This document shows, one piece after another, positions 6,651 to 26,060 of a stretch of 32,000 nt of DNA; within the stretch, counting starts at the first letter, position 1; every line of letters begins with the position of its first letter. Location of the stretch: positions 340,421-372,420 of the forward strand of contig JBFWVL010000001.1 in the NCBI GenBank assembly GCA_050246755.1. The letters run 5' to 3'. The stretch comes from Bacteriovoracia bacterium (lineage in GTDB: Bacteria; Bdellovibrionota; UBA1018; CAIPTA01). The notes under the pieces are model-generated. The model was not told the origin of the DNA. It did not search any database and was given only the letters and a program-made list of their open reading frames with translations. Made by a program: the position numbers and the translations under genes.

Positions 6651-8615
6651 ATGAAACTCAAACCTCTCACCACCGCCGCGATCTCTTCCTTCTTGCTTTC
6701 GGCCTCTGCCGGCACGACCTCCGCCGCCCCCGAAGCCGCAAAAAAAGCGGAATTCAATATCTGCTATTTTTCGCTGAATAAATCCGACGAGTACGATCTC
6801 ACCAAGAGCTTCATGAACAAGCTCAACGCCAACTCGGCGGTGAAGATCAACGTGATCGAGTTCCAGCCCGATAAAGACACCATCGCCAATAAAAAAGAAG
6901 CAATCCCCAATACCGCCTTCCGCAAGATGGTGGAGAGCGGAACGAAGTGCGAAGGCCTCGTGATCTCGGGCCACCATACCGGATCCTACGGAGGCAAGCG
7001 GGCCTACGATAAGCAGCGCCTCGAGATGGACGTGATGGAAGCTCTTTCCTGCGATCCCAAACACGCCGATTTTTTTCGCAATATCAACGCCGTTTGGCTC
7101 GAAGGCTGCCGCACCTTAGGCGTGGGCACGATCGTGGCCGGGCAAGAAGGCGATGAGCGGTTCAATCCCGACCACCACACGAACCGCGTGGGCGGAGTGC
7201 TCGACGACGATCAGCTCGGGCAAAACTACGCCCAGCTCAACAACGAATTCACCAATACCCTCGACCAGGATAATCCCCTCTCTTCGCGTTACCTTCGCCT
7301 CTTTCCCTCGGCCAAGCTTTTCGGCTGGACCCAGACCGCTCCCGGCGAAAAAGCCAATAGCCAGTACTCAATGCTTTTCCACATCGCGCACATGTCGCGG
7401 ATCCTAGACGCGCAAAACGATTTTCCTAAGGAATCCCCTTTGTCTCCCACGATCACCGCCGATTCCGCCGCCCGCTATATGGATGGGGTGCTCCTCGCGC
7501 TCGCGCGCTTCGGCAAGGAAGAACAGAAATGCGAAGAGCTCTCCACCACCGCCTGGATCGCCCACGGCACTAAGGGAAAGCTCAACGACCGCTACGCCTT
7601 CGATAATCCAGACCTAACCGCCTTCACCCCTCTCAGCTCCTCGGGCAATGAGGCCGTGCAAACCATGAAGGGCCTCGACTGCCAGCTCAAAGCCGCCGGC
7701 CGCAGCGCGGACATGGGCAAGCTGAACGCCGTGCTCGACGTGCTCAATGCGCGCCCCGAGCTCTTGCCCTACGCGTTCAATTCCCTCGTGGACCTGCGCA
7801 ATCAGGCCCTCAAGCAAGCCGCCGTGGACAAAAGCGAGGACGGCCGCAAGAAGAAGAGCCAATTCGCCCAGGCCATTCTCGACCGAATGAAAACCCACCC
7901 CACGGTGAAAACTTTCCTCGAGACCAAAATCGCTTCCAAGCAGCTGGGCGTGATGCGCAAGATCGACTACTACAAATTCTATAACAGCATGACCGGCAAA
8001 ACCGTGCCGGCCGTGCAGACCGAAATCGAAGCCCGTATTCTCGACGAGCTCAAAAAGCCCCTGCCCCGCACTTCCCAGACCTCGCGCATGCTCGCGCGCA
8101 GCTACCGTAGGATGATGCTGGAATCGGGTTTAAAAAATAAATTGCTCAGCCCCGGGATCGCCGAATCGATTCTCGCCCTGAATCCCGAATACGACGTGCT
8201 CGAAGCTATGGCAAAATTGATCAACTTCATCCCATCCGACGATAAAGTGGCTCTCTTGGCCCGCCTGGCTTCTTTTCCCCAGGCCAATAAGATCGTGGCG
8301 GGAGAAGTGCTGACGGCCATTCATAATATTCTCGGCGACACTTCTCGCTACCAGAGTTATTACAATTCGCTTTGGGTGCCGCTGAAGAACGTCGACGACT
8401 ACTGGCACGGGGAAATTCACGAAGATAATGGCACCGTAACCCCCGCCACTCCCCTCACCGCCATCCCGCCCGCGGGATCTATCGGGGGACCTCCCGGAGT
8501 ATTGGGCGCCGCGCCGGTACCCGTGCCCCGTAAACCGGGCCAGCCGGCTCCTCCTCCCGCGCCGGTGGAAACTAATCCCGTGGAAGACTTCTTCCGCAAT
8601 ATCTTCGGCCGTTAA
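6651..8615 (+). CDS. Large exported protein, unknown function, with a caspase-like His/Cys motif pair and a Pro-rich C-terminal tail
   Basis: 654 aa. Signal peptide MKLKPLTTAAISSFLLSASAGTTSAAP. Motifs GLVISGHHTG (His108/109, nt 6972-6977) and AVWLEGCRTLG (Cys153, nt 7107-7109). The C-terminus is PPAGSIGGPPGVLGAAPVPVPRKPGQPAPPPAP. It has coding-like composition and is tightly coupled to the upstream ORF. Confidence 0.6.
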   Translation: MKLKPLTTAAISSFLLSASAGTTSAAPEAAKKAEFNICYFSLNKSDEYDLTKSFMNKLNANSAVKINVIEFQPDKDTIANKKEAIPNTAFRKMVESGTKCEGLVISGHHTGSYGGKRAYDKQRLEMDVMEALSCDPKHADFFRNINAVWLEGCRTLGVGTIVAGQEGDERFNPDHHTNRVGGVLDDDQLGQNYAQLNNEFTNTLDQDNPLSSRYLRLFPSAKLFGWTQTAPGEKANSQYSMLFHIAHMSRILDAQNDFPKESPLSPTITADSAARYMDGVLLALARFGKEEQKCEELSTTAWIAHGTKGKLNDRYAFDNPDLTAFTPLSSSGNEAVQTMKGLDCQLKAAGRSADMGKLNAVLDVLNARPELLPYAFNSLVDLRNQALKQAAVDKSEDGRKKKSQFAQAILDRMKTHPTVKTFLETKIASKQLGVMRKIDYYKFYNSMTGKTVPAVQTEIEARILDELKKPLPRTSQTSRMLARSYRRMMLESGLKNKLLSPGIAESILALNPEYDVLEAMAKLINFIPSDDKVALLARLASFPQANKIVAGEVLTAIHNILGDTSRYQSYYNSLWVPLKNVDDYWHGEIHEDNGTVTPATPLTAIPPAGSIGGPPGVLGAAPVPVPRKPGQPAPPPAPVETNPVEDFFRNIFGR

Positions 8616-13085: not shown

Positions 13086-13856
13086 CTATTTAGCGAGAAA
13101 CTCCACCTTACCCAATTGATCGAACGTGGCACTCACCGTATCGCCCGCACGAAAAGCCACGGCCGCGGTGGCGCCGCCCGCGAGCACGATGGATCCGGCC
13201 GGCAAAGATTCGCCCATGGCGCCCAGTAGCTTCACGAGCTCCAGCAGCGAAAGCAGGGGATTCCCCAGAATGGCGGCCGAAGACCCCTTTTGCGCGGCCG
13301 CTCCATTTTTTTCGAGCGTGATACCGATATTTTTTAGTTCGAGTTCCCCCGGTTTTTTCCTTACCGTACCGAGCACGAAGGCCGAGGAGGAGCAGTTGTC
13401 GGCCACCACGTCGGGCAGGGCGAAATCAAAATTCTCGAAACGAGAATCAATCACTTCGATCGCCCCGCATACGCTCTCGATCGCCGCAATGGCTTCGGCT
13501 TCGGAAGGATTGCCATGCAGCTCTTTACCCATCACGAAGGCAATCTCGGGTTCGGCCTTAGGATGAATTCTTCTTCCGAGCGTGAGCGTCGCGCCGCTCG
13601 CTATTTGCATGCGGTCGGTGAGGAAGCCGTGGATAGGGCTATCAATTCCCATTTGCTCCATCTTGGGCTTGGAGGTCATTCCCATCTTGCGGCCAACGAT
13701 CCGCGCGCCGCCTTTGAGGTGAAGGGCCATGAGCAAGCGCTGCACTTCGTAGCCCTGACCGAGCGAAAAACTCGGCTCTTCCACCGTAAACTTAATTACG
13801 GACTTTCCCGTTTGCTCCGCCGCGAACAATATTCCCGCGATTTCTTGCGCCTTCAT
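13086..13856 (-). CDS. 2-oxopent-4-enoate hydratase / 4-oxalocrotonate decarboxylase family enzyme (AmnE/AmnF, MhpD/XylI/XylJ type), paralog 2
   Basis: The track ORF starts at TTG 13868. I prefer ATG at 13856 (MKAQEIAG...), which has GGAG 6 nt upstream and sits 1 nt after the upstream stop. Motifs are YEVQ, RIVGRKMGMTSKPKMEQMGIDSPIHGFL and EPEIAF...EVIDSRF. Which paralog is the hydratase and which the decarboxylase cannot be told by eye. Confidence 0.85.
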   Translation of the reverse strand: MKAQEIAGILFAAEQTGKSVIKFTVEEPSFSLGQGYEVQRLLMALHLKGGARIVGRKMGMTSKPKMEQMGIDSPIHGFLTDRMQIASGATLTLGRRIHPKAEPEIAFVMGKELHGNPSEAEAIAAIESVCGAIEVIDSRFENFDFALPDVVADNCSSSAFVLGTVRKKPGELELKNIGITLEKNGAAAQKGSSAAILGNPLLSLLELVKLLGAMGESLPAGSIVLAGGATAAVAFRAGDTVSATFDQLGKVEFLAK

Positions 13857-13857
13857 T

Positions 13858-14637
13858 CTATTCTCCAAAAAAACAGTGCACGTTTCCGAGACCAGCGATT
13901 TCCACGTCTACCCTATCGCCCGCCTTCACCGGCATCACCGGCCCAAAGGCGCCGGAAAGAATCACTTCACCGGCTTTCAGTGCCACCCCGAATTTTCCGA
14001 GCGCATTCGCAAGCCAGGCCACCGCCAGGCAAGGGTGATCGAGGCAAGCCGCGCCGGTGCCGGTGGAAAGAATTTCCCCGTTAATTTTCAGGCTCATCTT
14101 GGCGAGGGTTAAATCCAGGGAGGAAAGCGAATGCTTTTCCGTGCCCAGCACAAAGTGCGAAGAAGAGGCGTTGTCGGCGATCGTGTCCTGGATCTTGATT
14201 TTCCAGTCGCGCACGCGGGAATCAATGATCTCGATCGAGGGAAGAATATAGTCCGTTGCGTGGATCACATCCTGCATCGTTATGCCGGGGCCTATCAAGT
14301 CGCTCTTGAGCACGAAGGCCACCTCGCCCTCCACCCGGGGCAAAAGGAGCTTGGCGCGGGAAAGGCTTCCGCCCGAGGAAATCTTCATGTCGGAAGTGAG
14401 GTAGCCGAAATCGGGCTCTTCCACGCCCAATTGTTTCTGCACTGCCCTAGAAGTAAGGCCGATTTTCTTCCCCACGAGGGTCAGGCCTTCTTGCTCGAGG
14501 CGGCGCTTGAGGTTAATCTCGGACACGGAGTAGGCGTTGCCGATCGTGATTCCGGGAAACTGGGCGGTGAGCGGTTCCACCGGCGAGGCCGAGAGGCGGG
14601 CCTGAAAAAGGGCGTCAGCTAAGGAAGTAAGATTCAT
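13858..14637 (-). CDS. 2-oxopent-4-enoate hydratase / 4-oxalocrotonate decarboxylase family enzyme (AmnE/AmnF, MhpD/XylI/XylJ type), paralog 1
   Basis: 259 aa. Motifs are YSVSE, LVGKKIGLTSRAVQKQLGVEEPDFGYL, EGEVAFVL...IEIIDSRV and ADNASSSHFVLG. Same family as the downstream gene, the usual adjacent-pair arrangement in meta-cleavage operons. Confidence 0.85.
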   Translation of the reverse strand: MNLTSLADALFQARLSASPVEPLTAQFPGITIGNAYSVSEINLKRRLEQEGLTLVGKKIGLTSRAVQKQLGVEEPDFGYLTSDMKISSGGSLSRAKLLLPRVEGEVAFVLKSDLIGPGITMQDVIHATDYILPSIEIIDSRVRDWKIKIQDTIADNASSSHFVLGTEKHSLSSLDLTLAKMSLKINGEILSTGTGAACLDHPCLAVAWLANALGKFGVALKAGEVILSGAFGPVMPVKAGDRVDVEIAGLGNVHCFFGE

Positions 14638-14687
14638 CTTCCCCCACTCTAGTGTCAGGCCAGCGTGATTTCAAGAAGGGATACTCG
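14638..14687. promoter_or_regulatory. ~50-bp divergent intergenic region between the hydratase/decarboxylase pair and kynA
   Basis: This is the only non-coding DNA between divergent start codons (14637 minus, 14688 plus). I recognise no boxes. No regulator gene is visible in the cluster. Confidence 0.3.
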
Positions 14688-15557
14688 ATGTCGAAATACG
14701 ACAACTTGGAGCTGAAAGAACTGAACTATAACTCCTACCTCAAGGTGCCCGAATTGCTCGGCCTCCAAAAAGAGCTTTCCGACCCCGCCCACCACGACGA
14801 AATGTTCTTCATCATCATCCACCAGGCCGCCGAGCTCTGGTTCAAGCAAATGCGCCACGAAACGGCTGGCCTCATCGAGGATTTCCGCGCCAATTCCGTT
14901 TCCCGGGCCTTGAAAAAATTCCGTCGCCTCGTGGGCATTATGGATCTGATGGTGAAGCAGATCAATTTGCTAAACACCCTCACACCCGTGGAGTTCGCGG
15001 GCTTCCGCGATAACCTCCGCCCCGCTTCCGGCTTCCAGTCCATCCAGTTCCGCGTGATCGAGTTCGCCTATGGCATCCGCGAAGCTTTTTTCCTGGAATT
15101 TTTCGCCAAAGAAAAATCCATGCAGAGCCAGCTGCAAGACCTACTCAAAGAACCGAGCGTGCACGATGAGTTCGTGCGCCTGCTAAGCCGCTCCGGCTTC
15201 AAGATTCCGGAGTCCCTACTGAATCGCGACGTGAGCCTGCCGTGGACCGAATCTCCCGAGCTCATCGCCACGATCAAGACGATCTACGAGAATCCCCAGG
15301 AAAATTACCATTGGGTTCTGCTCTTCGAGACCATGCTCGACTTCGACGAAAAATTCGCCGTCTGGCGCTCCGTGCATATGCTCATGGTGGCGCGCACGAT
15401 CGGCATGAAGGCCGGCACCGGCGGCAGCTCGGGCCACGCCTTCCTCGCAGGCCGCGCTGGCCTGAGATTCTTCCCCGAGCTCTGGAGCGTGCGCACGGAA
15501 GTGGGCGGCGGATACGGGAATGCCGGGGCGGCCACTCCCGGGAAATGCCCGGTTTAA
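14688..15557 (+). CDS. kynA: Tryptophan 2,3-dioxygenase
   Basis: MSKYDNLELKELNYNSYLKVPELLGLQKELSDPAHHDEMFFIIIHQAAELWFKQ is the characteristic bacterial TDO N-terminus, with GFQS.QFR and GTGGSSG later. The track ORF begins at GTG 14652; ATG 14688 fits TDO N-termini better. Confidence 0.9.
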   Translation: MSKYDNLELKELNYNSYLKVPELLGLQKELSDPAHHDEMFFIIIHQAAELWFKQMRHETAGLIEDFRANSVSRALKKFRRLVGIMDLMVKQINLLNTLTPVEFAGFRDNLRPASGFQSIQFRVIEFAYGIREAFFLEFFAKEKSMQSQLQDLLKEPSVHDEFVRLLSRSGFKIPESLLNRDVSLPWTESPELIATIKTIYENPQENYHWVLLFETMLDFDEKFAVWRSVHMLMVARTIGMKAGTGGSSGHAFLAGRAGLRFFPELWSVRTEVGGGYGNAGAATPGKCPV

Positions 15558-15561: not shown

Positions 15562-16746
15562 ATGCGCTTCGACGTTTTCTTCTCCATCTGCCAAACTCCC
15601 GTGAACGGCTATACGCCCTCGGAACGCGTGATGTTCGAGAATTTTTTCTCCCAGGCCGAGCTCGCCGATCAACTCGGCGTGGGCACCGCCTGGGTGGCCG
15701 AAACCCACCTCTCCTGCCAGACCCAAAAAGAAAATCCCGGCGCGGTGGTGCCCCACTTCGAGGGCGAGATCGGCCTCAATACCGACGTGCTCCAGGTGGC
15801 GCACCGCTTATTCGCGCGCACGAAAAAAATCCATATCGGCTCCGCCATCCGCAATATCCAGTGCAATGGCGGCCCTATCGCCCACGCCGAAGCGATCCGC
15901 ATGTTTCTCTCGCTCCACGCGCTCAATCCCGGCGAGAAACGCCTTCTCGATATCGGCTTCGCTTCCGGCCGCTTTCCTTTTTCCAATACGCCCTACGGCA
16001 TCCGCCCCCGCAATGAACTGGAGAAAGCCGCCTGGCCCGTGCTCAAGGGAAAGATCTTCCAGGAAGCCACCGAAATTTTCCTGCGTCTCCTCAAGGGAGA
16101 GAAGCTCGCCTCGAAGGATATTTCACCTAAAATCCTCGAGCGCAAAAATTTCCGCAGTGAGGAGGAATGGGAAAAAATCGCCAAGCTCGCCGGCGGTGCC
16201 GACAAAATCGAAGTCCCCGCTTTCTGGAATTTCGATAAAGTGGGCGTGATTCCCTTCGAAGCCCCCATGGATCTGCTGAAGCTCACCATCGGTTGCCACG
16301 ATCTCGAAACCCAGATCTTCGCCAATAAATTCCTGCCCTGCGGAGTATTCAACCTCTCGATCACCCCCGCTCCCCAGATCGAAGCCACGCACCAGGCGAT
16401 GCAAAAAAGCTTTCACCCCGCGGGTGGCCGTTGGACCCGCGCCCATATGCCCCGCACGGTGCTCGTATTCCTGGATAAAAATCGCGAGAAGGCCCGTGCA
16501 CGTGCCCAGGGCGCGATGGAGAATTACTGGAAAGCCATCGAGGGAACCCTTGATCCCGAGAAGATTCGCAATGCCGTGGACAATGCCCTCGTGGGCGACG
16601 CGGCCGAAATCAAGGCGGAGCTGGAAACGCGCTTCCACCGCGACGATCGCCTCATGCTCTGGTTCGATTTCAATAACCACGACAACGAGGAAGTGCGCTC
16701 TTCCATGCGGGAATTCATGGAAAAAGTGGCGCCGAGCCTACAGTAA
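15562..16746 (+). CDS. Luciferase-like (LLM class) flavin-dependent monooxygenase
   Basis: The track ORF 15520.. is trimmed to ATG 15562 (MRFDVFFSICQ...), 4 nt after the kynA stop. It shows the LLM TIM-barrel N-terminal pattern (MRFDVFF...AELADQLGVGTAWVAETHLS) and is ~394 aa. Family-level call only. Confidence 0.75.
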   Translation: MRFDVFFSICQTPVNGYTPSERVMFENFFSQAELADQLGVGTAWVAETHLSCQTQKENPGAVVPHFEGEIGLNTDVLQVAHRLFARTKKIHIGSAIRNIQCNGGPIAHAEAIRMFLSLHALNPGEKRLLDIGFASGRFPFSNTPYGIRPRNELEKAAWPVLKGKIFQEATEIFLRLLKGEKLASKDISPKILERKNFRSEEEWEKIAKLAGGADKIEVPAFWNFDKVGVIPFEAPMDLLKLTIGCHDLETQIFANKFLPCGVFNLSITPAPQIEATHQAMQKSFHPAGGRWTRAHMPRTVLVFLDKNREKARARAQGAMENYWKAIEGTLDPEKIRNAVDNALVGDAAEIKAELETRFHRDDRLMLWFDFNNHDNEEVRSSMREFMEKVAPSLQ

Positions 16747-17036: not shown

Positions 17037-17735
17037 ATGACGAAAAATTGGATCTACTCGCTAAGTCTAGTTCTAGCTCTCACCGCAAACCTTGCTCTAG
17101 CCGGCGGCGCTGCCGTATCGGACCGCCTCAAATGCAATAAGGCGACCGAACTTCCCGTCAACGCAAGCGTAGACCGCGTGGTAGACGGCGACACCGTGAT
17201 CATCCGCGTCCCCACCGGCACCTACTCGGTGCGCATGATGGGCATCGATACCCCCGAAACTCACTTCATGGGCAAGAGCCAGGGCGAATGGGGCGATAAA
17301 GCCGCCGAACTCCTCTCCGACCTACTCCCCGTAGGCACCAAGGTTCGCCTCGAGTACACCGCGGAATCCTGCGATGCGCACGGGCGCCTGCTCGCCCACG
17401 TATTCAAAGGCAAGCTGCACACGAATGCCGAAATGGTGAAGCAAGGCCTCGCCGCCAACTATTGCGTAGCCCCCAGCTTCGAGTATTGCCGCGAAATCGG
17501 AAACCACGTGGCCAACGCCATTAAATACCGCCTGGGTATGTTCGCCGACTCCAACGCCGAGCTTCCCTATGATTTCCGCCGCCGCATTGGTGGCAACGAG
17601 CAGCGCTCTTTCGTGGGCAATCTCTCCACGAAAGAAGTTCTTACTCCCGGCCACCAAGATGACGTTCCGGTTGCCGAACGCGTATTCTTCTATCGCCAGA
17701 GCGACGTGAAGGCCCCCTACTTCATCGCGAAATAA
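17037..17735 (+). CDS. Secreted thermonuclease (staphylococcal nuclease, SNase) family protein
   Basis: 232 aa. Signal peptide MTKNWIYSLSLVLALTANLALAGG. SNase motifs are RVVDGDTVIIR, VRMMGIDTPET and HGRLLAHVF...N.EMVKQGLA. Confidence 0.85.
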   Translation: MTKNWIYSLSLVLALTANLALAGGAAVSDRLKCNKATELPVNASVDRVVDGDTVIIRVPTGTYSVRMMGIDTPETHFMGKSQGEWGDKAAELLSDLLPVGTKVRLEYTAESCDAHGRLLAHVFKGKLHTNAEMVKQGLAANYCVAPSFEYCREIGNHVANAIKYRLGMFADSNAELPYDFRRRIGGNEQRSFVGNLSTKEVLTPGHQDDVPVAERVFFYRQSDVKAPYFIAK

Positions 17736-17752
17736 ATCCTTGGGTTTCTTAC

Positions 17753-17788
17753 GCCTCTGCCTTCACGGGCAGGGGCTTTTTCATTTTA
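17753..17788 (+). terminator. Rho-independent terminator after the nuclease gene
   Basis: GCCTCTGCC-TTCACG-GGCAGGGGC gives a 9-bp stem with one G-U pair and a 6-nt loop. It is followed by TTTTTCATTTTAT, 18 nt after the stop codon. Confidence 0.75.
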
Positions 17789-17827: not shown

Positions 17828-18859
17828 ATGAGCGACCACGCTTACTCGCAAAACCAATGGGTGCCTCTCGTGGACTACCGTCGCAATGGAGTGGCTGAAT
17901 GCACCATCCACGGCTCCATTGCCTGGGTTTCGGGAACCAAGCTCGTGCACGCCTTTGGCGGGGAAGTGCTCTGCTATGGCCGCTCGATGATGAAGCCCTA
18001 TATGGTGAAGGTTTTCGCCAAAGAGCTCGAGGATATGAGCTGGGAACAGAAAGCCATCTCGGTGGCCTCCCATAACGGCGACACCGAACATATCCGCGTA
18101 GTCAGCTCCGTACTTTCCGAAAGCGAGCTCGGCCTCGTGCAAACCCCGCTCGCGCTGCCGCTGATGCAATTCGGCCAGCAGCGCCGCCGCCCGCGCCGCC
18201 TCTATCATTCCTGCTCCGGCGAACACGCCGCCATCCTCCGTGGCTGCCGCGTGAAGGGCTGGAGCCGCGTTGGCTATGTGTGGCCTCACCACGAATTTTT
18301 CCTCGCCTACCTCGCCCAGGTTCGCACCGTGCTCGGCGCCGATTGGGAACCCAAAGTGATCGCCAAAGACGGTTGCGGATTACCCACGATTTCCATGACT
18401 ACCGTGGAGATGGCGCGACTTATGGCCGATCTCGTAACGAAGAGAAACGACGATTGGGTTTGGGACGCGATGGTGAAGCACCCGGATCTCGTGGGCGGCT
18501 TCAACCGCCTCGATTCCACGATCATGAAATCCTGCGAAGGCCGCGTGATTGCCAAAGAAGGCGCCGACGGCTTGCTCGGGCTCGCAATCGAGCACCCGGA
18601 CTATCCTGATGGCCTCGGGGTAGTGATCAAGATCGCCCACGGCTGGGACATGCGCGCCACCTGGTACGTAGCCCGCTACGTGCTCGGCGTTTTGGGTTTT
18701 GATTTCCGCAATCCCTACCCGCTCGAGCGGCAAAAAGCTTTTCTGGTAGAGGATTGCATCCCGCCGGCGCTAAGGCCCAAGATGGATTCGATTCAGCCCT
18801 GGGACGACTGGGATCCGGATAGAGACCGCTGGAATTTTGATTACCGGGAGTTCACTTGA
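17828..18859 (+). CDS. Asparaginase II family (Rhizobium-type L-asparaginase-like) amidohydrolase
   Basis: 343 aa. Family-like motifs are GRSMMKPYM (Ser-x-x-Lys), SHNGDTEH, HSCSGEHAA, KDGCGLPT and AKEGADGL. Its stop overlaps the TTG start of the downstream aldehyde dehydrogenase (TTGA). Confidence 0.7.
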   Translation: MSDHAYSQNQWVPLVDYRRNGVAECTIHGSIAWVSGTKLVHAFGGEVLCYGRSMMKPYMVKVFAKELEDMSWEQKAISVASHNGDTEHIRVVSSVLSESELGLVQTPLALPLMQFGQQRRRPRRLYHSCSGEHAAILRGCRVKGWSRVGYVWPHHEFFLAYLAQVRTVLGADWEPKVIAKDGCGLPTISMTTVEMARLMADLVTKRNDDWVWDAMVKHPDLVGGFNRLDSTIMKSCEGRVIAKEGADGLLGLAIEHPDYPDGLGVVIKIAHGWDMRATWYVARYVLGVLGFDFRNPYPLERQKAFLVEDCIPPALRPKMDSIQPWDDWDPDRDRWNFDYREFT

Positions 18860-20298
18860 AATTAGCTAACTATATCGACGGCCACGAGCAGGCCCCGCTT
18901 TCGGGAAAGTATTTGCCCAACTACGCGCCCGCTACCGGCGAGATCTATTCCGAGATCCCCGATTCCAGCGCGGCAGACGTAGACCTCGCCGTGAAGGCCG
19001 CACAGAAAATTTTCCCTTGGTGGAGCCAACGCACCCCCGAGCAAAGATCCCAGGTTTTACTCTCGATTGCCGATCGAATGGAAAAATCCGTCGACGATCT
19101 CGTGAACGCCGAGAGCCGCGACCAGGGAAAACCCGTGCACCTCGCGCGCGAAATCGAAATCCCCCGCGCCATCCAAAATTTCCGCTACTTCGCCACCAAG
19201 ATTTTGCACACCGAAGAAACCGCGAGGCCCTCGCAGGCCCTGAGCTCCCTCTCCTACACCTACCGCATGCCCGTGGGCGTGGCCGGATTGATCTCGCCAT
19301 GGAATCTCCCGCTCTATTTGCTCACCTGGAAAATCGCGCCGGCCATCGCCGCCGGGAACACGGTGGTTTGCAAGCCCTCCGAGCTCACGCCGATGACGGC
19401 CTACCTCATGGGCGAAATCTTCAACGAGGCGGGCGTTCCCCACGGAGTGGTGAACATGGTATTCGGCCTCGGCGTCACCGCGGGCGCCGCACTCGCCGCT
19501 CACCCCGATGTGCCACTCATTTCTTTTACCGGCGGTACCGCCACCGGCCGCAAGATCCTCGAGGCCTCGATTCCGCGTTTCAAGAAAACCAGCCTCGAGC
19601 TCGGCGGAAAAAATGCGGCGCTGGTTTTTGCCGACTGCGATCTCGCCGAAGCTGTGATCACGAGCGTGCGCTCATCCTTCCAGAACCAAGGCGAAATCTG
19701 CCTCTGCAATTCCCGCATCCTGGTGGAAGAAGGCATCTACGAGAAATTCGTGGAAAAATTCGCGCGCACGGCGAGCCTCATCCGCGTGGGCGATCCCACC
19801 CTGAAAGAAACCCAGATGGGCCCGCTCGTGAGCAAGGAGCATAAAGAAAAAGTTCTCTCCTATATCAAGCTCGCCACCGAAGAAGGCGGCACTATTCTAG
19901 GCGGCGGCACCGTCCCCCACCTCGAAGCGCCCTTCGATCAAGGCTATTTCGTAAATCCCACGATCATCACGGGCCTCGGCCCCAACTGCCGTGTGAACCA
20001 GGAAGAGATTTTTGGCCCCGTGGCCAGTATCATTCCCTTCAAAACTGAGGAGGAAGCGATTGCGATCGCGAACGGCGTGGAATACGGACTATCCGCCTCC
20101 GTTTGGACCCGCGATATTTCTCGCGCCCACCGCGTAGCCCAGGCCCTGCACGTGGGCACCACCTGGGTAAACTCCTGGATGGTCCGCGATCTCGGCATGC
20201 CTTTCGGCGGCATGAAGCATTCCGGCCTCGGCCGCGAAGGCGGAGATCACTCGCTGAATTTTTTCAGCGAAACGAAAACCATCAGCGTGAAGATATGA
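18856..20298 (+). CDS. amnC: 2-aminomuconate-6-semialdehyde / 2-hydroxymuconate semialdehyde dehydrogenase (ALDH superfamily, AmnC/NbaE/XylG type)
   Basis: 480 aa. The N-terminus MKLANYIDG...AVKAAQKIFPWW and REIEIPRAIQNFRYFA are typical of the HMSD/AMSDH clade. It has the ALDH Glu motif ELGGKNA and the Cys motif QNQGEICLCNSR. The gene symbol is assigned from context. Confidence 0.85.
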   Translation: MKLANYIDGHEQAPLSGKYLPNYAPATGEIYSEIPDSSAADVDLAVKAAQKIFPWWSQRTPEQRSQVLLSIADRMEKSVDDLVNAESRDQGKPVHLAREIEIPRAIQNFRYFATKILHTEETARPSQALSSLSYTYRMPVGVAGLISPWNLPLYLLTWKIAPAIAAGNTVVCKPSELTPMTAYLMGEIFNEAGVPHGVVNMVFGLGVTAGAALAAHPDVPLISFTGGTATGRKILEASIPRFKKTSLELGGKNAALVFADCDLAEAVITSVRSSFQNQGEICLCNSRILVEEGIYEKFVEKFARTASLIRVGDPTLKETQMGPLVSKEHKEKVLSYIKLATEEGGTILGGGTVPHLEAPFDQGYFVNPTIITGLGPNCRVNQEEIFGPVASIIPFKTEEEAIAIANGVEYGLSASVWTRDISRAHRVAQALHVGTTWVNSWMVRDLGMPFGGMKHSGLGREGGDHSLNFFSETKTISVKI

Positions 20299-20813
20299 AG
20301 CTCTTCCTGCTTTTCTTAATTCCTCTTTTTGCCTTCGCCAAGCCCGCGGCACGCAAATCCAAGGCGCCGCCCAAACGCGTAGCCACGAAGATCACTTCGG
20401 GCAAACAGGTTTGCGATATGGTGAAAAAATTCACCACCGCCGGGTTTCCCGCCCAGACCAATATCGATTTCGCCGTGGGGAAAAAGTTCGTGGCCGAAGG
20501 AAAGCTCGGCGCCATCGACAAAAATATCGGCACCTTCCATTTAGCCAATCTCTACCTGCGCGCCATCGCCAAGGGCGAGGAGGGCCTCACCTATAAAGAG
20601 GGCTGCCTAAAAATCAATTTCCCCGACCTCGATAAGGATGGGATTAAGGACCTCGAGCTCTCCGTGACGATGGAGCGACTCGACCCCAAAGCGAATCCTA
20701 AAGTGGTGAGCACCGTGAACTACGAACGCACGTTCATCTACCATCCGGAACAGAAAATCTACGAGCCCATGACCGGCTCCCCTCACCCCTTCGTGGAGCT
20801 CGTGATCAAGTGA
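20295..20813 (+). CDS. Exported protein, unknown function
   Basis: The track ORF 20103.. is trimmed to ATG 20295 (ATGA overlap with the amnC stop). Signal peptide MKLFLLFLIPLFAFAKP; 172 aa. I recognise no family. Confidence 0.5.
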   Translation: MKLFLLFLIPLFAFAKPAARKSKAPPKRVATKITSGKQVCDMVKKFTTAGFPAQTNIDFAVGKKFVAEGKLGAIDKNIGTFHLANLYLRAIAKGEEGLTYKEGCLKINFPDLDKDGIKDLELSVTMERLDPKANPKVVSTVNYERTFIYHPEQKIYEPMTGSPHPFVELVIK

Positions 20814-21190
20814 AACAGGTGATCCTGATCCGCCGCGATCTCAATATGCGCCGGGGAAAAGAAATCGCGCAGGGGTCACACGCCTCGATGGGATTTCTGA
20901 TCGAGCAATTGCGGGCGCAGATGCCTTCTTCGGAGGCTTCGGTCACTCTCGACGCGGCCACGCAGGAATGGATTCAGTTCGGCATGGGAAAGATTTGCCT
21001 GCAGGTTACGAGCGAAGCGGATTTGCTTAGCTTCCACGCGAAGGCGAAGGCCGCCGGAGTGTATAGTTTTTTGGTGAGGGATAGTGGCCGCACGGAATTT
21101 CACGGCGAACCTACCTATACCGCCTGCGCGATCGGGCCCGATACGGCCGAGAGAATCGATGCAATCACGGGTGAGCTGAACTTGTATTGA
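20810..21190 (+). CDS. pth2: Peptidyl-tRNA hydrolase, PTH2 (archaeal/eukaryotic-type) family
   Basis: 126 aa. VILIRRDLNMRRGKEIAQGSHAS...RDSGRTEFHGEPTYTACAIGP...IDAITGELNLY follows the Pth2 pattern (R.DL.MG.GK.AAQ..HA ... D.GRT....T.T...IGP ... TG.LKLY). GTG start in a GTGA overlap. Confidence 0.85.
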   Translation: MKQVILIRRDLNMRRGKEIAQGSHASMGFLIEQLRAQMPSSEASVTLDAATQEWIQFGMGKICLQVTSEADLLSFHAKAKAAGVYSFLVRDSGRTEFHGEPTYTACAIGPDTAERIDAITGELNLY

Positions 21191-21284: not shown

Positions 21285-23493
<2,209 letters not shown>

Positions 23494-23497
<4 letters not shown>

Positions 23498-24129
23498 AGA
23501 TTTGGGACATCAGCCCGGTGATTTCCGAGAAGACGGCCGTATTTCCCGGCGACGTGCCTTTTTCCCGCGAAGTTTCGATGGACACGAAAAAAGGCCACCA
23601 CCTCACCCTCTCGGCCATTCGTTCCACGCTGCATATCGGCGCGCACGCCGACGCCGGCAATCATTATCATAAAGAGGGAAAAGGCGTGGAGGCGCGGCCC
23701 CTCGAATCCTACCTGGGCGACTGTGAAGTGATCGCCGTAAAGCTTCCCCGTGGTGCCCGTATCGGAATCGAGCATTTGAACGGAAGAATCCCGCTCGCCC
23801 CCCGCGTGCTCTTCAAAACAAATTCTTTTCCCGATCCCGATCAATGGAACAATGATTTCAATTCTCTCTCGCCCGAGCTGATCGAGTTCCTCGCCGACCG
23901 CGGCGCTATGCTCGTGGGTATCGACACTCCGAGCGTAGATCCCGTGGATTCCAAAGCCCTCGAAAGCCACCAGGCGCTGCACCGCAGAAATCTCGCCGTG
24001 CTCGAGGGAATCACGCTGGAACAGGTAACGGAAGGCGTGTACACCCTGGTCGCTTTGCCGCTGCGAATGAAAGACGCTGACGCTTCGCCGGTTCGTGCTA
24101 TCCTTATAAACAAAGAAACGTTGTTGTGA
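23494..24129 (+). CDS. kynB: Kynurenine formamidase (arylformamidase, cyclase family)
   Basis: 211 aa. MKIWDISPVISEKTAVFPGDVPF and the metal motif LHIGAHADAGNHY are typical of bacterial KynB, as is the C-terminal GIDTPSVDP. ATGA overlap with the upstream stop. Confidence 0.9.
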
Positions 24130-24156: not shown

Positions 24157-24546
24157 ATGCGCGCGCTATTGCTTCTTTCTCTTTTTTTTCTCACCGCCTG
24201 TGCCGGATCAAAATCAAGTAACGACGCCCAAGAGCCCAGCACCGACGAGTGCCTCTCCAATTCCGCCGCCGGCGACGCCTGGGGCGAGTGCAACGTGAAG
24301 AAAACCATTTACCAAAATATGGATAAGCTCGTGGCCTGCCAAGAAAAAAATCCCACCAAGGGCGGTACCATGATGCTGAAGATCAGCCTAAAGACGAACG
24401 GCGTGGTAAAAAAAGTGAGACCGGAAGCCGGCACGGTTCGTAATCGCCCGCTCGAGGCCTGCCTTTCAAAAGCATTCGCGCGCGTGAAATTCGCGGCTCC
24501 TCCCGAGGGAGTGAAGCCAGTTATCTATTTTCCCTTGTCGCTTTAG
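24157..24546 (+). CDS. Lipoprotein, unknown function (C-terminal TonB-C/AgmX-like small domain possible)
   Basis: 129 aa. Lipobox in MRALLLLSLFFLTAC|AGS. Paired Cys and a ~70-aa C-terminal domain ending VKFAAPPEGVKPVIYFPLSL. The domain call is weak. Confidence 0.5.
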   Translation: MRALLLLSLFFLTACAGSKSSNDAQEPSTDECLSNSAAGDAWGECNVKKTIYQNMDKLVACQEKNPTKGGTMMLKISLKTNGVVKKVRPEAGTVRNRPLEACLSKAFARVKFAAPPEGVKPVIYFPLSL

Positions 24547-26060
24547 GGCACAATATTGGGGTAAGCAGCCGGTGAAACTTCCGGCACTTTACCCGGCGCC
24601 GGCAGTGGTTTCTCCACCGATGGCTTAGTCCCTTTTTCCCAGCTATCTAGTTTCGTTATCCAGGGTTCCATCGTAGCGGCCAGTTTTTTACGGAAATTTT
24701 CCATGTCCATGATGCGCACGTAATCGTCGTACATTCGGCCATATTCTTTTTCCATCACGGGATCGAGCTTTTCCTTGCCCACGTGCAGACGATAGAATTG
24801 CCATTGCACGAGCGCGTCCGAAATTTCGTTTTCCGACTCCGCGAGCTTCGCCGCCCAGAAAGCTATTTTGTCGAGGTCGTCACCAGTAGGCGGAGTTCCG
24901 CTTTTTTCCGTTAGGGCGGTAAGCACGTCGAGCGTTTGCCGTTTCGCATCGTAGCTGGAGCGCAGGGAAGGAATGGTCAGCACCTTCTCCTTCAGGGCGG
25001 CCACCCATTTTTCGTCGAAATTCTTTTCGATGCTGAGAACCACGTTATGGAAATCGGGAAGATTGGCGAGATAGCCTTTTTCGATGTCGTCCATTCTTTC
25101 GCGAACCTTTGCCCGCGAGAGGCCTTTCCATTTTTCATCCAATATTTCTTTCTGCAGCGCTTGCAGGGCGGCAATTTTTTCGGTGGCCTTTTCAGGGCGC
25201 GAGGTGGTCAACTTCGAAACTTGTTCCTGAACGAACTCGCCGGCCTCTTTGGTCTTATCGGTACCCACTTTTTTCACTGGATTAACCAGCGGCGCGATGA
25301 AAGAGGTACCCATTTCATAAAGGGGAACGGCGGTGCCGAACGCGATCACCGGCTTAGCCCAGCCATAGAGAAACTTGCCGATTTTTTCGCCCTTGGCGAC
25401 GGCCAAGCTCTTGATCCGGCTATAAAGCCCTGGGTATTCCGAAGCAAGGTAGTGGGGAAGGTTGGAAATCGTGATCCCCTTTCCTTCCACTACATAGAGC
25501 CGCACGAACTGCTGGTCGAAGTATTCGGCGAGAAATTCATTTCCCCGGATTCCCTTAAGGATCTGATCGCTGTCGATCTTGGGATAGGCATTTCCGTTAT
25601 ACATTTCCCTTAGCCATTTGCGGTAGGCCACTAATTCTTGGCGAGGAAAAAGCCCGGCTGCCACCCGCCGCTCCATCAGCTCGTCGAAGGCTTCGCGGTA
25701 TTTTTTCAAAATCACTTTATTGCTCTTGGGCATCGCTTTCATGGCCCGGAATCCATCGGGCACTTCGGTTTCGGCAGGAAAGATGTCTTTTACTTTTATC
25801 TGCTCGAGTTCCACTACCCGGGCGTTTGCCTTTTCCACAAATCCCGGAATGTATTTCCGCACCACGGAAAAATTCTGCTTATAGCTGATCCGGGAATACA
25901 AGCGACGGCAGCCGGCTTCCCCGGCGGCCGGGCTTTCCGCCGGAGCCGCGGCGTGCTCCACGGGGGCGACGGCGGCGCTAGGAGCTTCCTGCGCGTGCGC
26001 ACTCACCGCGCTCAAGAGCAACGCTACGGCGCTAAATTTGGCAAAAAACTTCAGGGGCAT
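24543..26060 (-). CDS. Large exported protein, unknown function
   Basis: 505 aa. Signal peptide MPLKFFAKFSAVALLLSAVSAHAQE, with GGAG before the ATG. It has one internal hydrophobic segment and a Lys/Glu-rich helical C-terminal half with a Pro-rich end. I recognise no family. Confidence 0.55.
   Translation of the reverse strand: MPLKFFAKFSAVALLLSAVSAHAQEAPSAAVAPVEHAAAPAESPAAGEAGCRRLYSRISYKQNFSVVRKYIPGFVEKANARVVELEQIKVKDIFPAETEVPDGFRAMKAMPKSNKVILKKYREAFDELMERRVAAGLFPRQELVAYRKWLREMYNGNAYPKIDSDQILKGIRGNEFLAEYFDQQFVRLYVVEGKGITISNLPHYLASEYPGLYSRIKSLAVAKGEKIGKFLYGWAKPVIAFGTAVPLYEMGTSFIAPLVNPVKKVGTDKTKEAGEFVQEQVSKLTTSRPEKATEKIAALQALQKEILDEKWKGLSRAKVRERMDDIEKGYLANLPDFHNVVLSIEKNFDEKWVAALKEKVLTIPSLRSSYDAKRQTLDVLTALTEKSGTPPTGDDLDKIAFWAAKLAESENEISDALVQWQFYRLHVGKEKLDPVMEKEYGRMYDDYVRIMDMENFRKKLAATMEPWITKLDSWEKGTKPSVEKPLPAPGKVPEVSPAAYPNIVP

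What the first reader, a model, noticed from the sequence alone, without database searches (positions are those of the whole stretch)
17828..18859. Asparaginase-II-family hydrolase translationally coupled to the aminomuconate-semialdehyde dehydrogenase
Seen: a 343-aa Asparaginase_II-like ORF has its stop overlapping the TTG start of amnC (TTGA at 18856-18859). It carries the Ser-x-x-Lys (SMMK) and DGCG motifs. It reads CSGEH where, as I remember it, the characterised Rhizobium enzymes read CSGKH, with that Lys at the metal site.

Established: the family hydrolyses the beta-amide of asparagine. No step in canonical aromatic amine catabolism needs an asparaginase.

Inference: the enzyme has been recruited to cleave a beta-aspartyl aryl ester or anilide, releasing 2-aminophenol.
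Basis: partly seen in the sequence, partly recalled or inferred. Interest (0 to 1): 0.65.

Follow-up and report, generated by a model that had tools for sequence, protein, structure and literature searches.

The report
Asparaginase-like hydrolase in tryptophan-to-aminophenol pathway
This asparaginase-family gene is almost always found beside a flavin monooxygenase gene and 2-aminophenol ring-cleavage genes in three bacterial phyla, which suggests an undescribed way of breaking down tryptophan: kynurenine is oxidised to an aspartyl-aminophenol compound that this enzyme splits into aspartate and 2-aminophenol.

Summary
ORF 17828-18859 (+, 343 aa) is a PF06089 / class-3 asparaginase-fold protein. 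Its TGA overlaps the TTG start of an AmnC-like aldehyde dehydrogenase. It reads CSGEH where both solved Rhizobium etli enzymes read CSGKH, and that Lys is a zinc ligand.

Neither feature is diagnostic:
- Four-base overlaps are the local habit; the dehydrogenase is coupled the same way to unrelated genes.
- Orthologues in the same gene context carry Glu, Lys or His at that position.

The informative evidence is synteny. The gene belongs to a tightly conserved subfamily (65-87% identical across Bdellovibrionota, Acidobacteriota and Planctomycetota). This subfamily sits next to one particular luciferase-like monooxygenase (LLM): 28 of 33 informative LLM-seeded metagenome loci carry it. The pair is usually followed by AmnC, AmnB and AmnA::RidA, and often accompanied by tryptophan 2,3-dioxygenase and arylformamidase. 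No kynureninase appears in the three Pfam-annotated cluster loci or in the window.

Best reading: LLM performs a Baeyer-Villiger oxidation of kynurenine (or N-formylkynurenine). This hydrolase then cleaves the resulting beta-aspartyl 2-aminophenyl ester or N4-(2-hydroxyphenyl)asparagine to Asp and 2-aminophenol.

I found no paper describing this route.

The parts
17828..18859 (+). Class-3 asparaginase-fold (PF06089) Ser-Lys amidohydrolase, 343 aa. Predicted beta-aspartyl-(2-aminophenol) ester/anilide hydrolase.
   Evidence: The AF2 model has pLDDT 82.6; its best Foldseek matches are ReAV/ReAIV at TM 0.61-0.67.
17981..17995 (+). R52-S53-M-M-K56. Equivalent to ReAV Arg47 (substrate anchor), Ser48 (nucleophile) and Lys51 (base).
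   Evidence: Alignment. Invariant in 32 subfamily members. Roles taken from PMC12292245 and PMC12951835.
18212..18226 (+). C129-S-G-E132-H133 metal-site motif. Glu replaces the Zn-ligand Lys138 of ReAV.
   Evidence: The position varies (E/K/H) among orthologues in the same gene context.
18368..18379 (+). D181-G-C183-G. Equivalent to ReAV Asp187 and the Zn ligand Cys189.
18846..18859 (+). GGGAG Shine-Dalgarno followed by the TTGA stop/start overlap with the aldehyde dehydrogenase gene.
15562..16746 (+). Luciferase-like flavin monooxygenase (LLM), 394 aa from the MRFDVFF start. Predicted kynurenine or N-formylkynurenine Baeyer-Villiger monooxygenase and conserved partner of the hydrolase.
14652..15557 (+). 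Tryptophan 2,3-dioxygenase. Its stop lies 4 nt before the LLM start.
   Evidence: (TIGR03036, E=9.6e-82).
18856..20298 (+). AmnC-like 2-amino/2-hydroxymuconate-6-semialdehyde dehydrogenase.
   Evidence: TIGR03216, E=1e-172; 575 bits, below the equivalog cut-off of 693.
21318..22226 (+). 2-aminophenol 1,6-dioxygenase beta (catalytic) subunit, AmnB.
   Evidence: 3vsg_B E=1e-123; 8ihg_A E=8e-123.
22223..23497 (+). 2-aminophenol 1,6-dioxygenase alpha subunit (AmnA) fused to a RidA-type 2-aminomuconate deaminase.
   Evidence: 7txy_A E=2.7e-57; 6izh_A E=5e-23 on residues 296-422.
23494..24129 (+). Arylformamidase (kynurenine formamidase, KynB).
   Evidence: TIGR03035, E=3.4e-61.
13858..14637 (-). 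DmpE/AmnF-like 2-oxopent-4-enoate hydratase.
   Evidence: TIGR03220, E=1.1e-96.
13086..13868 (-). DmpH/AmnE-like 4-oxalocrotonate (2-oxo-3-hexenedioate) decarboxylase.
   Evidence: TIGR03218, E=1.5e-72.
17753..17776 (+). Intrinsic-terminator-like hairpin after the inserted SNase gene. It separates the TDO-LLM unit from the hydrolase-ALDH unit.
   Evidence: 10 pairs, 7 G-C, T-run.

Best explanation
The ORF encodes an active class-3-asparaginase-fold serine amidohydrolase that works as the second half of a two-enzyme module with the neighbouring luciferase-like flavin monooxygenase (LLM).

Proposed route:
1. Tryptophan is opened by tryptophan 2,3-dioxygenase and deformylated by arylformamidase to give L-kynurenine.
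2. The LLM, using FMNH2 and O2, performs a Baeyer-Villiger (Dakin-type) oxygen insertion between the 2-aminophenyl ring and the side-chain carbonyl. The product is the beta-(2-aminophenyl) ester of L-aspartate. This ester can rearrange by O-to-N acyl shift to N4-(2-hydroxyphenyl)-L-asparagine.
3. The asparaginase-like enzyme holds the alpha-amino acid end at its metal/Arg site exactly as ReAV holds L-Asn. Ser53 attacks the beta-carbonyl and releases L-aspartate plus 2-aminophenol instead of ammonia.
4. 2-Aminophenol is then degraded by AmnB/AmnA, the AmnC-like dehydrogenase, the fused RidA deaminase and the DmpH/DmpE-like enzymes.

Shown: family membership, an intact catalytic apparatus, the Lys-to-Glu change, the identity of the downstream Amn enzymes, and the cross-phylum gene linkage.

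Inferred: the substrate of the LLM, the direction of migration, the order of deformylation and oxidation, and the substrate of the hydrolase.
For: **Linkage**
- In AsnII-seeded genome loci, 14 of 20 have the LLM and/or the AmnC-like ALDH adjacent. These include Bdellovibrionota and Acidobacteriota/Thermoanaerobaculia.
- In LLM-seeded metagenome loci with at least 2.5 kb on both sides, 28 of 33 carry the hydrolase within 5.6 kb, mostly under 200 bp away. Of the 33, 22 carry ALDH, 17 AmnB plus AmnA::RidA, 7 KynB and 5 TDO.
- Some loci hold only the divergent LLM/hydrolase pair.
- A Planctomycetota contig reads TDO-FKBP-SDR-LLM-x-x-AsnII-ALDH-AmnB-...-RidA-KynB.
- A 56%-identical relative sits in a compact SDR-LLM-AsnII-ALDH-AmnB-AmnA::RidA-KynB operon. 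A 47%-identical relative sits in TDO-x-SDR-LLM-AsnII.

**Downstream substrate**
- AmnB matches solved 2-aminophenol 1,6-dioxygenase beta subunits at E=1e-123. AmnA and 2-aminomuconate deaminase are also matched.

**Upstream source**
- TDO and arylformamidase are in the same clusters.
- No kynureninase, KMO, HAAO or ACMSD family appears in the three Pfam-annotated cluster loci (L001, L027, L108) or in the window.

**Enzyme**
- Arg47, Ser48, Lys51, Ser80, Cys135, His139, Tyr156, Asp187, Cys189, Thr193 and Lys263 of ReAV are all kept, and are invariant or nearly so in the subfamily.
- In ReAV the metal anchors the alpha-amino and alpha-carboxy groups of L-Asn, and Arg47 anchors the substrate (PMC12951835; PMC12292245). 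An alpha-amino acid with a beta-carbonyl is therefore the expected substrate type.
- Kynurenine plus one O, with aryl migration, has exactly the asparagine skeleton with the amide NH2 replaced by O-aryl or NH-aryl (chemical reasoning).

**LLM fold**
- The LLM model's fold relatives include type II Baeyer-Villiger monooxygenases and a BV-type PKS OX domain.
- A Fre-like NAD(P)H-flavin reductase sits in six of the loci.

**Precedent**
- Pseudomonas fluorescens ACB degrades 4-hydroxyacetophenone via 4-hydroxyphenyl acetate to hydroquinone, using a BVMO and then an esterase (PMC3727088).
Against: - No biochemical data exist for any member of this subfamily or of the partner LLM.
- The LLM has no close characterised relative. 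It gives 32 bits to PF00296, no PDB sequence hit, and fold matches at only 13-18% identity and TM about 0.6. Baeyer-Villiger activity is therefore a guess from fold and context.
- Six of 20 genome loci show the hydrolase with no pathway gene within 10 kb: Sericytochromatia, one Acidobacteriota contig and L023.
- Five of 33 LLM loci lack the hydrolase nearby.
- An SDR that accompanies the LLM in 28 loci has no role in the scheme.
- I could not examine whole genomes for kynureninase elsewhere.
- In the window, the hydrolase is separated from the LLM by an unrelated nuclease gene and a terminator.
Confidence: 0.55

Rival explanations
1. It is an ordinary L-asparaginase (L-Asn to L-Asp plus NH3). 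Its place among aromatic-catabolism genes is an accident of a compact genome.
For: - It is a PF06089 member with the complete catalytic set of ReAV/ReAIV.
- Sources name its relatives 'asparaginase'.
- In some genomes the orthologue stands alone among housekeeping genes.
- In the window, unrelated genes (SNase, Pth2) are also interspersed, and 4-nt overlaps are general.
Against: - Linkage to one specific LLM holds in 28 of 33 LLM-seeded loci, and to AmnC/AmnB/AmnA across three phyla. It persists down to 47% identity.
- The protein is only 22-25% identical to the characterised asparaginases.
- It has its own strongly conserved subfamily features: an RRRPRR loop and a W/D-rich C-terminal extension.
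Confidence: 0.1
2. The LLM/hydrolase pair does act on a kynurenine-type ketone, but with alkyl rather than aryl migration. This would give O-(2-aminobenzoyl)-L-serine, hydrolysed to anthranilate plus serine. Alternatively, the LLM does a different oxygenation, such as ring or N-hydroxylation, and the hydrolase cleaves some other amide.
For: - The linkage evidence is the same as for the best explanation.
- Enzymes can override intrinsic migratory aptitude (general knowledge).
- LLM-fold enzymes also perform hydroxylations, epoxidations and RutA-type amide cleavage (fold neighbours).
Against: - The conserved downstream enzymes are 2-aminophenol 1,6-dioxygenase subunits, not anthranilate dioxygenase or anthranilate-CoA ligase.
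- An anthraniloyl-serine ester puts the scissile carbonyl one atom further from C-alpha than in asparagine. That does not fit an active site whose alpha-amino-acid anchor and nucleophile are both conserved.
- The electron-rich 2-aminophenyl group is the better migrating group (chemical reasoning).
Confidence: 0.1
3. The pair supplies 2-aminophenol from a non-tryptophan source, for example another aryl ketone or amide xenobiotic, or a plant benzoxazinoid product. TDO and KynB are merely neighbours.
For: - Many loci show LLM-AsnII-ALDH-AmnB-AmnA without TDO or KynB in the fetched 10-kb flanks. Of the 33 informative loci, only 5 carry TDO and 7 carry KynB.
- Amn pathways are classically xenobiotic (nitrobenzene, chloronitrobenzene; titles of 3vsg and 7txy).
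Against: - TDO and/or arylformamidase recur in the clusters of Bdellovibrionota, Planctomycetota and unassigned metagenome contigs. They often abut the SDR/LLM or close the operon.
- LLM loci that lack the hydrolase still carry TDO or KynB (L041, L070, L073, L081).
- The conserved alpha-amino-acid anchor argues for an amino-acid substrate.
Confidence: 0.1
4. The protein acts downstream as an amidase or deaminase on a ring-fission product, such as 2-aminomuconate or its semialdehyde, rather than upstream of ring cleavage.
For: It is translationally coupled to the AmnC-like dehydrogenase in the window and in many loci.
Against: - A dedicated RidA-type 2-aminomuconate deaminase is already fused to AmnA.
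- The tightest and most persistent partner is the LLM, including loci that hold only that pair.
- 2-Aminomuconate is an enamine, not a carboxamide.
Confidence: 0.03

Closest known systems
Class 3 L-asparaginases ReAV and ReAIV of Rhizobium etli (PF06089; PDB 7os3, 8cly, 9g66)
   Same: - Same Pfam family and fold (E=1e-15 and 2e-11 by sequence; Foldseek TM 0.61-0.67).
- Same two Ser-Lys tandems, Arg anchor, two Cys metal ligands, and His139/Tyr156/Asp187 equivalents.
   Different: - Only 22-25% identical.
- The Zn-ligand Lys138 is Glu here, and K or H in sister clades.
- It has a subfamily-specific basic loop (Q118-R124, low pLDDT) and a roughly 45-residue W/D-rich C-terminal extension.
- It is genomically tied to a monooxygenase and to aminophenol catabolism rather than to asparagine use.
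- The predicted leaving group is 2-aminophenol, not ammonia.
Aryl-ketone Baeyer-Villiger/esterase modules, e.g. 4-hydroxyacetophenone monooxygenase plus 4-hydroxyphenyl acetate esterase of Pseudomonas fluorescens ACB
   Same: Same logic: oxygen insertion next to an aromatic ring converts an aryl ketone to an aryl ester, and a hydrolase then releases a phenol for ring cleavage (PMC3727088).
   Different: - The monooxygenase there is a single-component FAD/NADPH type I BVMO, and the esterase is unrelated.
- Here the oxygenase is a luciferase-like (type II-like) enzyme, the hydrolase is asparaginase-fold, the substrate would be an amino acid, and the acid product is aspartate.
amn/cnb 2-aminophenol meta-cleavage clusters (Pseudomonas sp. 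AP-3, P. pseudoalcaligenes JS45, Comamonas CNB-1)
   Same: AmnB, AmnA, an AmnC-like dehydrogenase, an AmnD-type deaminase, and a decarboxylase and hydratase are all present.
   Different: - In the known clusters, 2-aminophenol comes from nitroarenes via hydroxylaminobenzene mutase, and none contains an asparaginase-family gene or an LLM (my knowledge of the published clusters).
- Here the feed appears to be tryptophan.
- AmnA is fused to the deaminase.
Bacterial kynurenine pathway clusters kynA-kynB-kynU
   Same: Tryptophan 2,3-dioxygenase and arylformamidase are present and clustered.
   Different: Kynureninase is absent from the three Pfam-annotated cluster loci and the window. The LLM/hydrolase pair occupies its logical position.

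Membership tests
Class 3 L-asparaginase / PF06089 Asparaginase_II | Significant match to the family profile | tested here: met
   PF06089 at E=4.8e-49, 167.5 bits against a cut-off of 25; residues 15-293 match model positions 1-294 of 322.
Class 3 L-asparaginase / PF06089 Asparaginase_II | ReAV-like two-domain alpha/beta fold | tested here: met
   AF2 model with pLDDT 82.6 and pTM 0.84. The top 41 Foldseek PDB hits are all ReAV/ReAIV (E about 1e-15, TM 0.61-0.67). The next hits are beta-lactamases and glutaminase at E>1e-3.
Class 3 L-asparaginase / PF06089 Asparaginase_II | First Ser-Lys tandem with preceding Arg (ReAV R47-S48-x-x-K51) | tested here: met
   R52-S53-M-M-K56; R, S and K are invariant in the 32-member alignment.
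Class 3 L-asparaginase / PF06089 Asparaginase_II | Second Ser-Lys tandem (ReAV S80 ... K263) | tested here: met
   S81 (ASHNGD) and K243 (KEGADG) are aligned and invariant.
Class 3 L-asparaginase / PF06089 Asparaginase_II | Zn site Cys135 / Lys138 / Cys189 | tested here: not met
   Both Cys are kept (C129, C183), but the Lys is Glu132. Lys138 is 97% conserved among ReAV orthologues (PMC11024299). Whether Glu still binds a metal was not testable.
Class 3 L-asparaginase / PF06089 Asparaginase_II | Hydrolysis of L-asparagine as the physiological reaction | not testable with these tools
   Needs an enzyme assay. Gene context argues for a different physiological substrate.
2-aminophenol meta-cleavage (amn) gene cluster | Two-subunit LigB-type 2-aminophenol 1,6-dioxygenase | tested here: met
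   21318-22226 matches AmnB/CnbCb at E=1e-123. 22223-23497 matches AmnA/CnbCa at E=2.7e-57.
2-aminophenol meta-cleavage (amn) gene cluster | The asparaginase-family gene is a canonical member | not tested
   No asparaginase-family or LLM gene is part of the published amn/cnb clusters as far as I know. That rests on my knowledge; no cluster record was examined. My literature searches combining these terms returned nothing relevant.
Baeyer-Villiger monooxygenase + ester hydrolase catabolic module | Partner oxygenase is a BVMO | tested here: inconclusive
   The LLM has the luciferase-like TIM-barrel fold. Its neighbours include the type II BVMO 3,6-diketocamphane monooxygenase (4uwm) and a BV-type OX domain (6ket), but also luciferases, hydroxylases and F420 enzymes. 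Identity is 13-18%.
Baeyer-Villiger monooxygenase + ester hydrolase catabolic module | Oxygenase and hydrolase genes persistently adjacent | tested here: met
   28 of 33 informative LLM loci carry the hydrolase, often with overlapping stop and start.

The most novel reading that the evidence does not exclude
Bdellovibrionota, Acidobacteriota, Planctomycetota and other uncultured bacteria use a previously undescribed fourth fate of kynurenine. A luciferase-like flavin monooxygenase performs a Baeyer-Villiger/Dakin-type oxidation. A class-3-asparaginase-fold enzyme then hydrolyses the beta-aspartyl aminophenyl ester or anilide. The products are L-aspartate and 2-aminophenol, and the latter enters an Amn meta-cleavage pathway. 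This would make the Amn pathway a natural amino-acid catabolic route rather than a xenobiotic one. It would also give the 'asparaginase II' family its first non-asparagine physiological substrate.
Probability: 0.5. Interest if true: 0.85.

Novelty: new variant of a known kind. Interest (0 to 1): 0.72.

Why it matters
- **Tryptophan catabolism.** Bacterial degradation of tryptophan is textbook material with three known fates of kynurenine: kynureninase to anthranilate, the KMO/3-hydroxyanthranilate route, and transamination to kynurenate. A route that releases aspartate and 2-aminophenol would be a new branch, and it is apparently widespread in soil and freshwater phyla that are poorly cultured.
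- **Origin of the Amn pathway.** It would explain what the 2-aminophenol (Amn) pathway is for in organisms that never meet nitroarenes.
- **Asparaginase annotation.** Class 3 'asparaginases' are being studied as antileukaemic leads. The family would then contain N4-aryl-asparagine or beta-aspartyl-ester hydrolases, so the blanket annotation 'asparaginase' for hundreds of database entries is probably wrong.
- **Metal site.** Natural Lys/Glu/His variation at the odd Lys metal ligand is a ready-made experiment on that site.

Tried and rejected
1. **Lys-to-Glu as the functional switch.** Rejected. The motif is clade-specific (CSGEH, CSGKH, SSGHH clades), but every clade is LLM/Amn-linked, and orphans also read CSGEH.
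2. **Translational coupling in the window as evidence of function.** Rejected as specific evidence. The same overlaps join ALDH to a secreted 172-aa protein and to Pth2.
3. **First three neighbourhood look-ups.** These suggested that linkage was confined to the closest relative. Wider sampling overturned that.
4. **SDR as a core pathway enzyme, or as a replacement for the DmpE/DmpH branch.** The SDR is present in 28 loci and never occurs with the FAA hydrolases. However, 59 LLM loci have neither, so no conclusion is possible.
5. **Sequence search of the LLM against PDB and NCBIfam.** No hits. Only fold-level similarity was found.
6. **Literature.** Six searches combined kynurenine, Baeyer-Villiger, 2-aminophenol, luciferase-like monooxygenase, asparaginase, amnB and tryptophan dioxygenase. 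None found a description of the route.
7. **Active-site pocket.** I could not inspect the leaving-group pocket because model coordinates are not exposed.
Full report
**1. The observation**

ORF 17828-18859 (+) is real: ATG start, 343 aa. It matches PF06089 Asparaginase_II at E=4.8e-49, and no NCBIfam model matches it.

Its TGA stop (18857-18859) overlaps the TTG (18856-18858) of a 480-aa aldehyde dehydrogenase ORF. A GGGAG lies at 18846-18850. The dehydrogenase aligns from residue 4 to TIGR03216, 2-hydroxymuconic semialdehyde dehydrogenase, at E=1e-172. At 575 bits it is below the equivalog cut-off of 693. 'AmnC-like' is therefore a fair name, and the TTG start is plausible.

**2. The Lys-to-Glu claim**

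phmmer against PDB sequences finds only the Rhizobium etli class 3 asparaginases: ReAIV (8cly, E=1.3e-15) and ReAV (7os3, E=1.6e-11). The printed alignments place CSGKH of both opposite CSGEH of this protein.

The literature says the following.
- ReAV binds Zn through Cys135, Lys138, Cys189 and a water. Lys138 is 97% conserved among ReAV orthologues. K138A keeps about 1.5-2.5% activity with weakened Zn binding (PMC11024299).
- The metal does not act in catalysis. It anchors the alpha-amino and alpha-carboxy groups of L-Asn, and Ser48 is the nucleophile (PMC12951835).
- Arg47 anchors the substrate (PMC12292245).

All other catalytic residues are kept here, and are invariant or nearly invariant in 32 subfamily members:

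| ReAV | This protein |
|---|---|
| R47 | R52 |
| S48 | S53 |
| K51 | K56 |
| S80 | S81 |
| C135 | C129 |
| H139 | H133 |
| Y156 | Y150 |
| D187 | D181 |
| C189 | C183 |
| T193 | T187 |
| K263 | K243 |

An AF2 model (pLDDT 82.6) matches ReAV/ReAIV at TM 0.61-0.67 and 22-25% identity.

The substitution is not special to this gene's situation. Among the 120 best database relatives, all 65-86% identical, the motif is CSGEH in 84, CSGKH in 28 and CAGKH in 6. Among orthologues in the fetched loci it is CSGEH 54, CSGKH 10, CAGKH 1, SSGHH 6 and CSGEY 2. A neighbour-joining tree shows these as separate clades, and all of them lie in the same gene context. In the wider family, represented by clusters at 50% identity, Lys dominates: CSGKH in 57 of 85 full-length hits.

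**3. The surroundings in the window**

| Coordinates | Gene | Evidence |
|---|---|---|
| 13086-13868 (-) | DmpH-like decarboxylase | |
| 13858-14637 (-) | DmpE-like hydratase | |
| 14652-15557 (+) | tryptophan 2,3-dioxygenase | TIGR03036, E=1e-81; |
| 15562-16746 (+) | luciferase-like monooxygenase (LLM); start 4 nt after the TDO stop | |
| 17037-17735 (+) | secreted SNase-type nuclease, followed by a strong terminator-like hairpin at 17753-17776 | |
| 17828-18859 (+) | the asparaginase-like gene | |
| 18856-20298 (+) | AmnC-like ALDH | |
| 20295-20813 (+) | 172-aa secreted protein | |
| 20810-21190 (+) | Pth2 | |
| 21318-22226 (+) | AmnB | E=1e-123 to solved 2-aminophenol 1,6-dioxygenase beta subunits; |
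| 22223-23497 (+) | AmnA fused to a RidA-type 2-aminomuconate deaminase | |
| 23494-24129 (+) | arylformamidase | TIGR03035, E=3e-61; |

No kynureninase, kynurenine 3-monooxygenase, 3-hydroxyanthranilate dioxygenase or ACMS decarboxylase is in the window.

The cluster therefore has the entry of the kynurenine pathway and the whole 2-aminophenol meta-cleavage pathway. Nothing known connects kynurenine to 2-aminophenol. Two genes of unassigned role sit in between: the LLM and the asparaginase-like hydrolase.

The stop/start overlap also joins ALDH to the secreted protein, that protein to Pth2, AmnB to AmnA, and AmnA::RidA to KynB. It is the local style, not a mark of partnership.

**4. Comparative genomics**

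The window comes from a Bdellovibrionota-type organism; the closest loci are Bdellovibrionales and Oligoflexia MAGs at 82-87% identity.

*Hydrolase-seeded genome loci.*
- 14 of 20 have the LLM and/or ALDH/AmnB/AmnA adjacent.
- These comprise eight Bdellovibrionota loci (one of them Bacteriovoracia) and six Acidobacteriota/Thermoanaerobaculia loci arranged LLM-hydrolase-ALDH-AmnB-AmnA::RidA.
- Six are orphans: four Sericytochromatia, one Acidobacteriota contig and L023.

*Further look-ups.*
- Two contigs read Fre-like reductase, PPase, SDR, LLM, hydrolase, ALDH (then AmnB and AmnA::RidA in one), with overlapping stops and starts. Both are CSGKH types.
- A Planctomycetota contig reads TDO-FKBP-SDR-LLM-x-x-hydrolase-ALDH-AmnB-...-RidA-arylformamidase.

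*Reverse test, seeded with the LLM in metagenome contigs.*
- There were 33 loci with at least 2.5 kb on both sides of the LLM.
- 28 carry the hydrolase within 5.6 kb, typically 15-250 bp away.
- 22 carry ALDH, 17 AmnB plus AmnA::RidA, 7 arylformamidase and 5 TDO.
- In eight related loci the hydrolase and LLM are a divergent pair; in six of these no other pathway gene was detected, and in L092, the one I annotated, the flanks are housekeeping genes such as recA. Two of the eight also carry the ALDH.
- LLM loci that lack the hydrolase still carry TDO or arylformamidase (L041, L070, L073, L081).

*More distant relatives keep the pairing.*
- A 56%-identical protein sits in SDR-LLM-hydrolase-ALDH-AmnB-AmnA::RidA-arylformamidase.
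- A 47%-identical, shorter, CSGKH protein sits in TDO-x-SDR-LLM-hydrolase.

The LLM/hydrolase pair is thus the conserved core. Tryptophan-opening genes lie upstream of it and aminophenol-cleaving genes downstream.

**5. Mechanism proposed**

Kynurenine is 3-(2-aminobenzoyl)alanine. It is asparagine with the amide NH2 replaced by a 2-aminophenyl group.

1. A flavin-peroxide Baeyer-Villiger (Dakin-type) insertion with aryl migration would give L-aspartate beta-(2-aminophenyl) ester.
2. The free ortho-amine can take over the acyl group and give N4-(2-hydroxyphenyl)-L-asparagine, a stable anilide.
3. Either compound keeps the asparagine skeleton that a class 3 asparaginase active site recognises: alpha-amino acid at the metal/Arg site, beta-carbonyl at the Ser nucleophile.
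4. Hydrolysis gives L-aspartate and 2-aminophenol, which is the substrate of the AmnB/AmnA encoded next door.

The rearrangement would explain why an amidase scaffold rather than a generic esterase was recruited. The order may differ: oxidation of N-formylkynurenine first, with deformylation of 2-formamidophenol last.

Supporting points:
- Fold neighbours of the LLM model (pLDDT 87.4) include 3,6-diketocamphane monooxygenase (a type II BVMO) and a BV-type PKS OX domain. They also include luciferases and other oxygenases, at 13-18% identity.
- A Fre-like flavin reductase occurs in six loci.
- The BVMO-then-esterase route from 4-hydroxyacetophenone to hydroquinone is an established precedent (PMC3727088).

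Everything about substrates is inference. None of these proteins has been assayed.

**6. Rivals**

- An ordinary asparaginase placed by accident. This is hard to square with the cross-phylum linkage.
- Alkyl migration giving anthraniloyl-serine. This does not fit the downstream aminophenol dioxygenase or the geometry of the conserved active site.
- A non-tryptophan source of the aryl ketone. This is possible, because many loci show no TDO or KynB within 10 kb. However, TDO or arylformamidase recurs in three lineages.
- A downstream deaminase role. This is unlikely, since a RidA deaminase is already present and the tightest partner is the LLM.

**7. Known or new**

Six full-text searches combining kynurenine, Baeyer-Villiger, 2-aminophenol, luciferase-like monooxygenase, asparaginase, amnB and tryptophan dioxygenase found no description of such a route. 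The library does not cover subscription journals, so this is absence within that library only.

All the protein families are known, and so is the BVMO/hydrolase logic. Three things would be new: its application to kynurenine, the use of an asparaginase-fold enzyme as the hydrolase, and a natural amino-acid feed into the Amn pathway. I rate it a new variant of a known kind, of high interest if confirmed.

**8. Unresolved**

- The role of the SDR that precedes the LLM in 28 loci.
- The function of the orphan copies.
- Whether Glu132 binds a metal.
- Whether carrier genomes lack kynureninase genome-wide.

Noticed in passing
window 18856-21190, 22223-22226 and 23494-23497: A chain of 4-nt stop/start overlaps: hydrolase-ALDH (TTGA), ALDH-172-aa secreted protein (ATGA 20295-20298), that protein-Pth2 (GTGA 20810-20813), AmnB-AmnA::RidA, and AmnA::RidA-KynB. 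Overlap is the local habit and also joins unrelated genes.
   Followed up: yes
window 20810-21190 (+): A Pth2-type peptidyl-tRNA hydrolase (PF01981, TIGR00283 arch_pth2, the archaeal/eukaryotic type) is encoded inside the catabolic cluster of a bacterial genome. It is preceded by a 172-aa signal-peptide protein with no family hit.
   Followed up: no
window 17037-17776 (+): A secreted staphylococcal-nuclease-type gene with a strong intrinsic terminator is inserted between the LLM and the hydrolase. This insertion is seen only in the Bdellovibrionota loci (L001, L006-L009, L029, L030, L032).
   Followed up: partly
window 22223-23497 (+): The non-catalytic AmnA subunit is fused to a RidA-type 2-aminomuconate deaminase. 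The fusion is conserved in most related loci. In the Planctomycetota locus L027 the RidA is a separate gene.
   Followed up: partly
L025-L027, L034, L035, L041, L054-L057, L060-L063, L080-L083, L108, L110 and others (28 loci): An orthologous short-chain dehydrogenase (47-60% identical among loci) sits immediately upstream of the LLM, often abutting it. It is absent from the window and never co-occurs with the DmpE/DmpH-like genes. Its role in the proposed pathway is unexplained.
   Followed up: partly
L025, L026, L034, L035, L040, L060: A Fre/LuxG-like NAD(P)H-flavin reductase (FAD_binding_6 plus NAD_binding_1) lies just upstream of the SDR-LLM genes, fitting a two-component FMNH2-dependent oxygenase. 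In five of the six loci an inorganic pyrophosphatase gene lies beside it.
   Followed up: partly
L039, L044, L054, L055, L080, L083: A clade of hydrolase orthologues (sequenced through the motif in five of the six loci) reads SSGHH: the first Cys ligand is replaced by Ser and the Lys by His. The gene order is changed to LLM-ALDH-AmnB-AmnA-hydrolase. The metal site may be different or lost while the context is kept.
   Followed up: partly
L002/L022, L012, L014, L021 (Sericytochromatia): Orphan orthologues (70-73% identical) have no pathway gene within 10 kb. In L002 the gene directly follows ribF (FAD synthetase). Two read CSGEY, with the conserved His139 equivalent changed to Tyr.
   Followed up: no
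window residues 108-123 and 295-343 of the ORF (about 18149-18196 and 18710-18856): Two subfamily-specific features are absent from R. etli enzymes. One is an invariant basic loop QxRRxRR with low model confidence. The other is a W/D-rich C-terminal extension (PWDDWDPDxDRW), which the 47%-identical relatives lack.
   Followed up: partly
L025 518-3424: In one 3.9-Mb contig the SDR-LLM-hydrolase-ALDH block lies a few kb from phenylalanine hydroxylase, 4-hydroxyphenylpyruvate dioxygenase and homogentisate dioxygenase genes. This makes an aromatic amino-acid catabolic neighbourhood.
   Followed up: no
window 6651-8615 (+) and 24543-26060 (-): Two long ORFs (654 aa and 505 aa) have no Pfam or NCBIfam match.
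   Followed up: no
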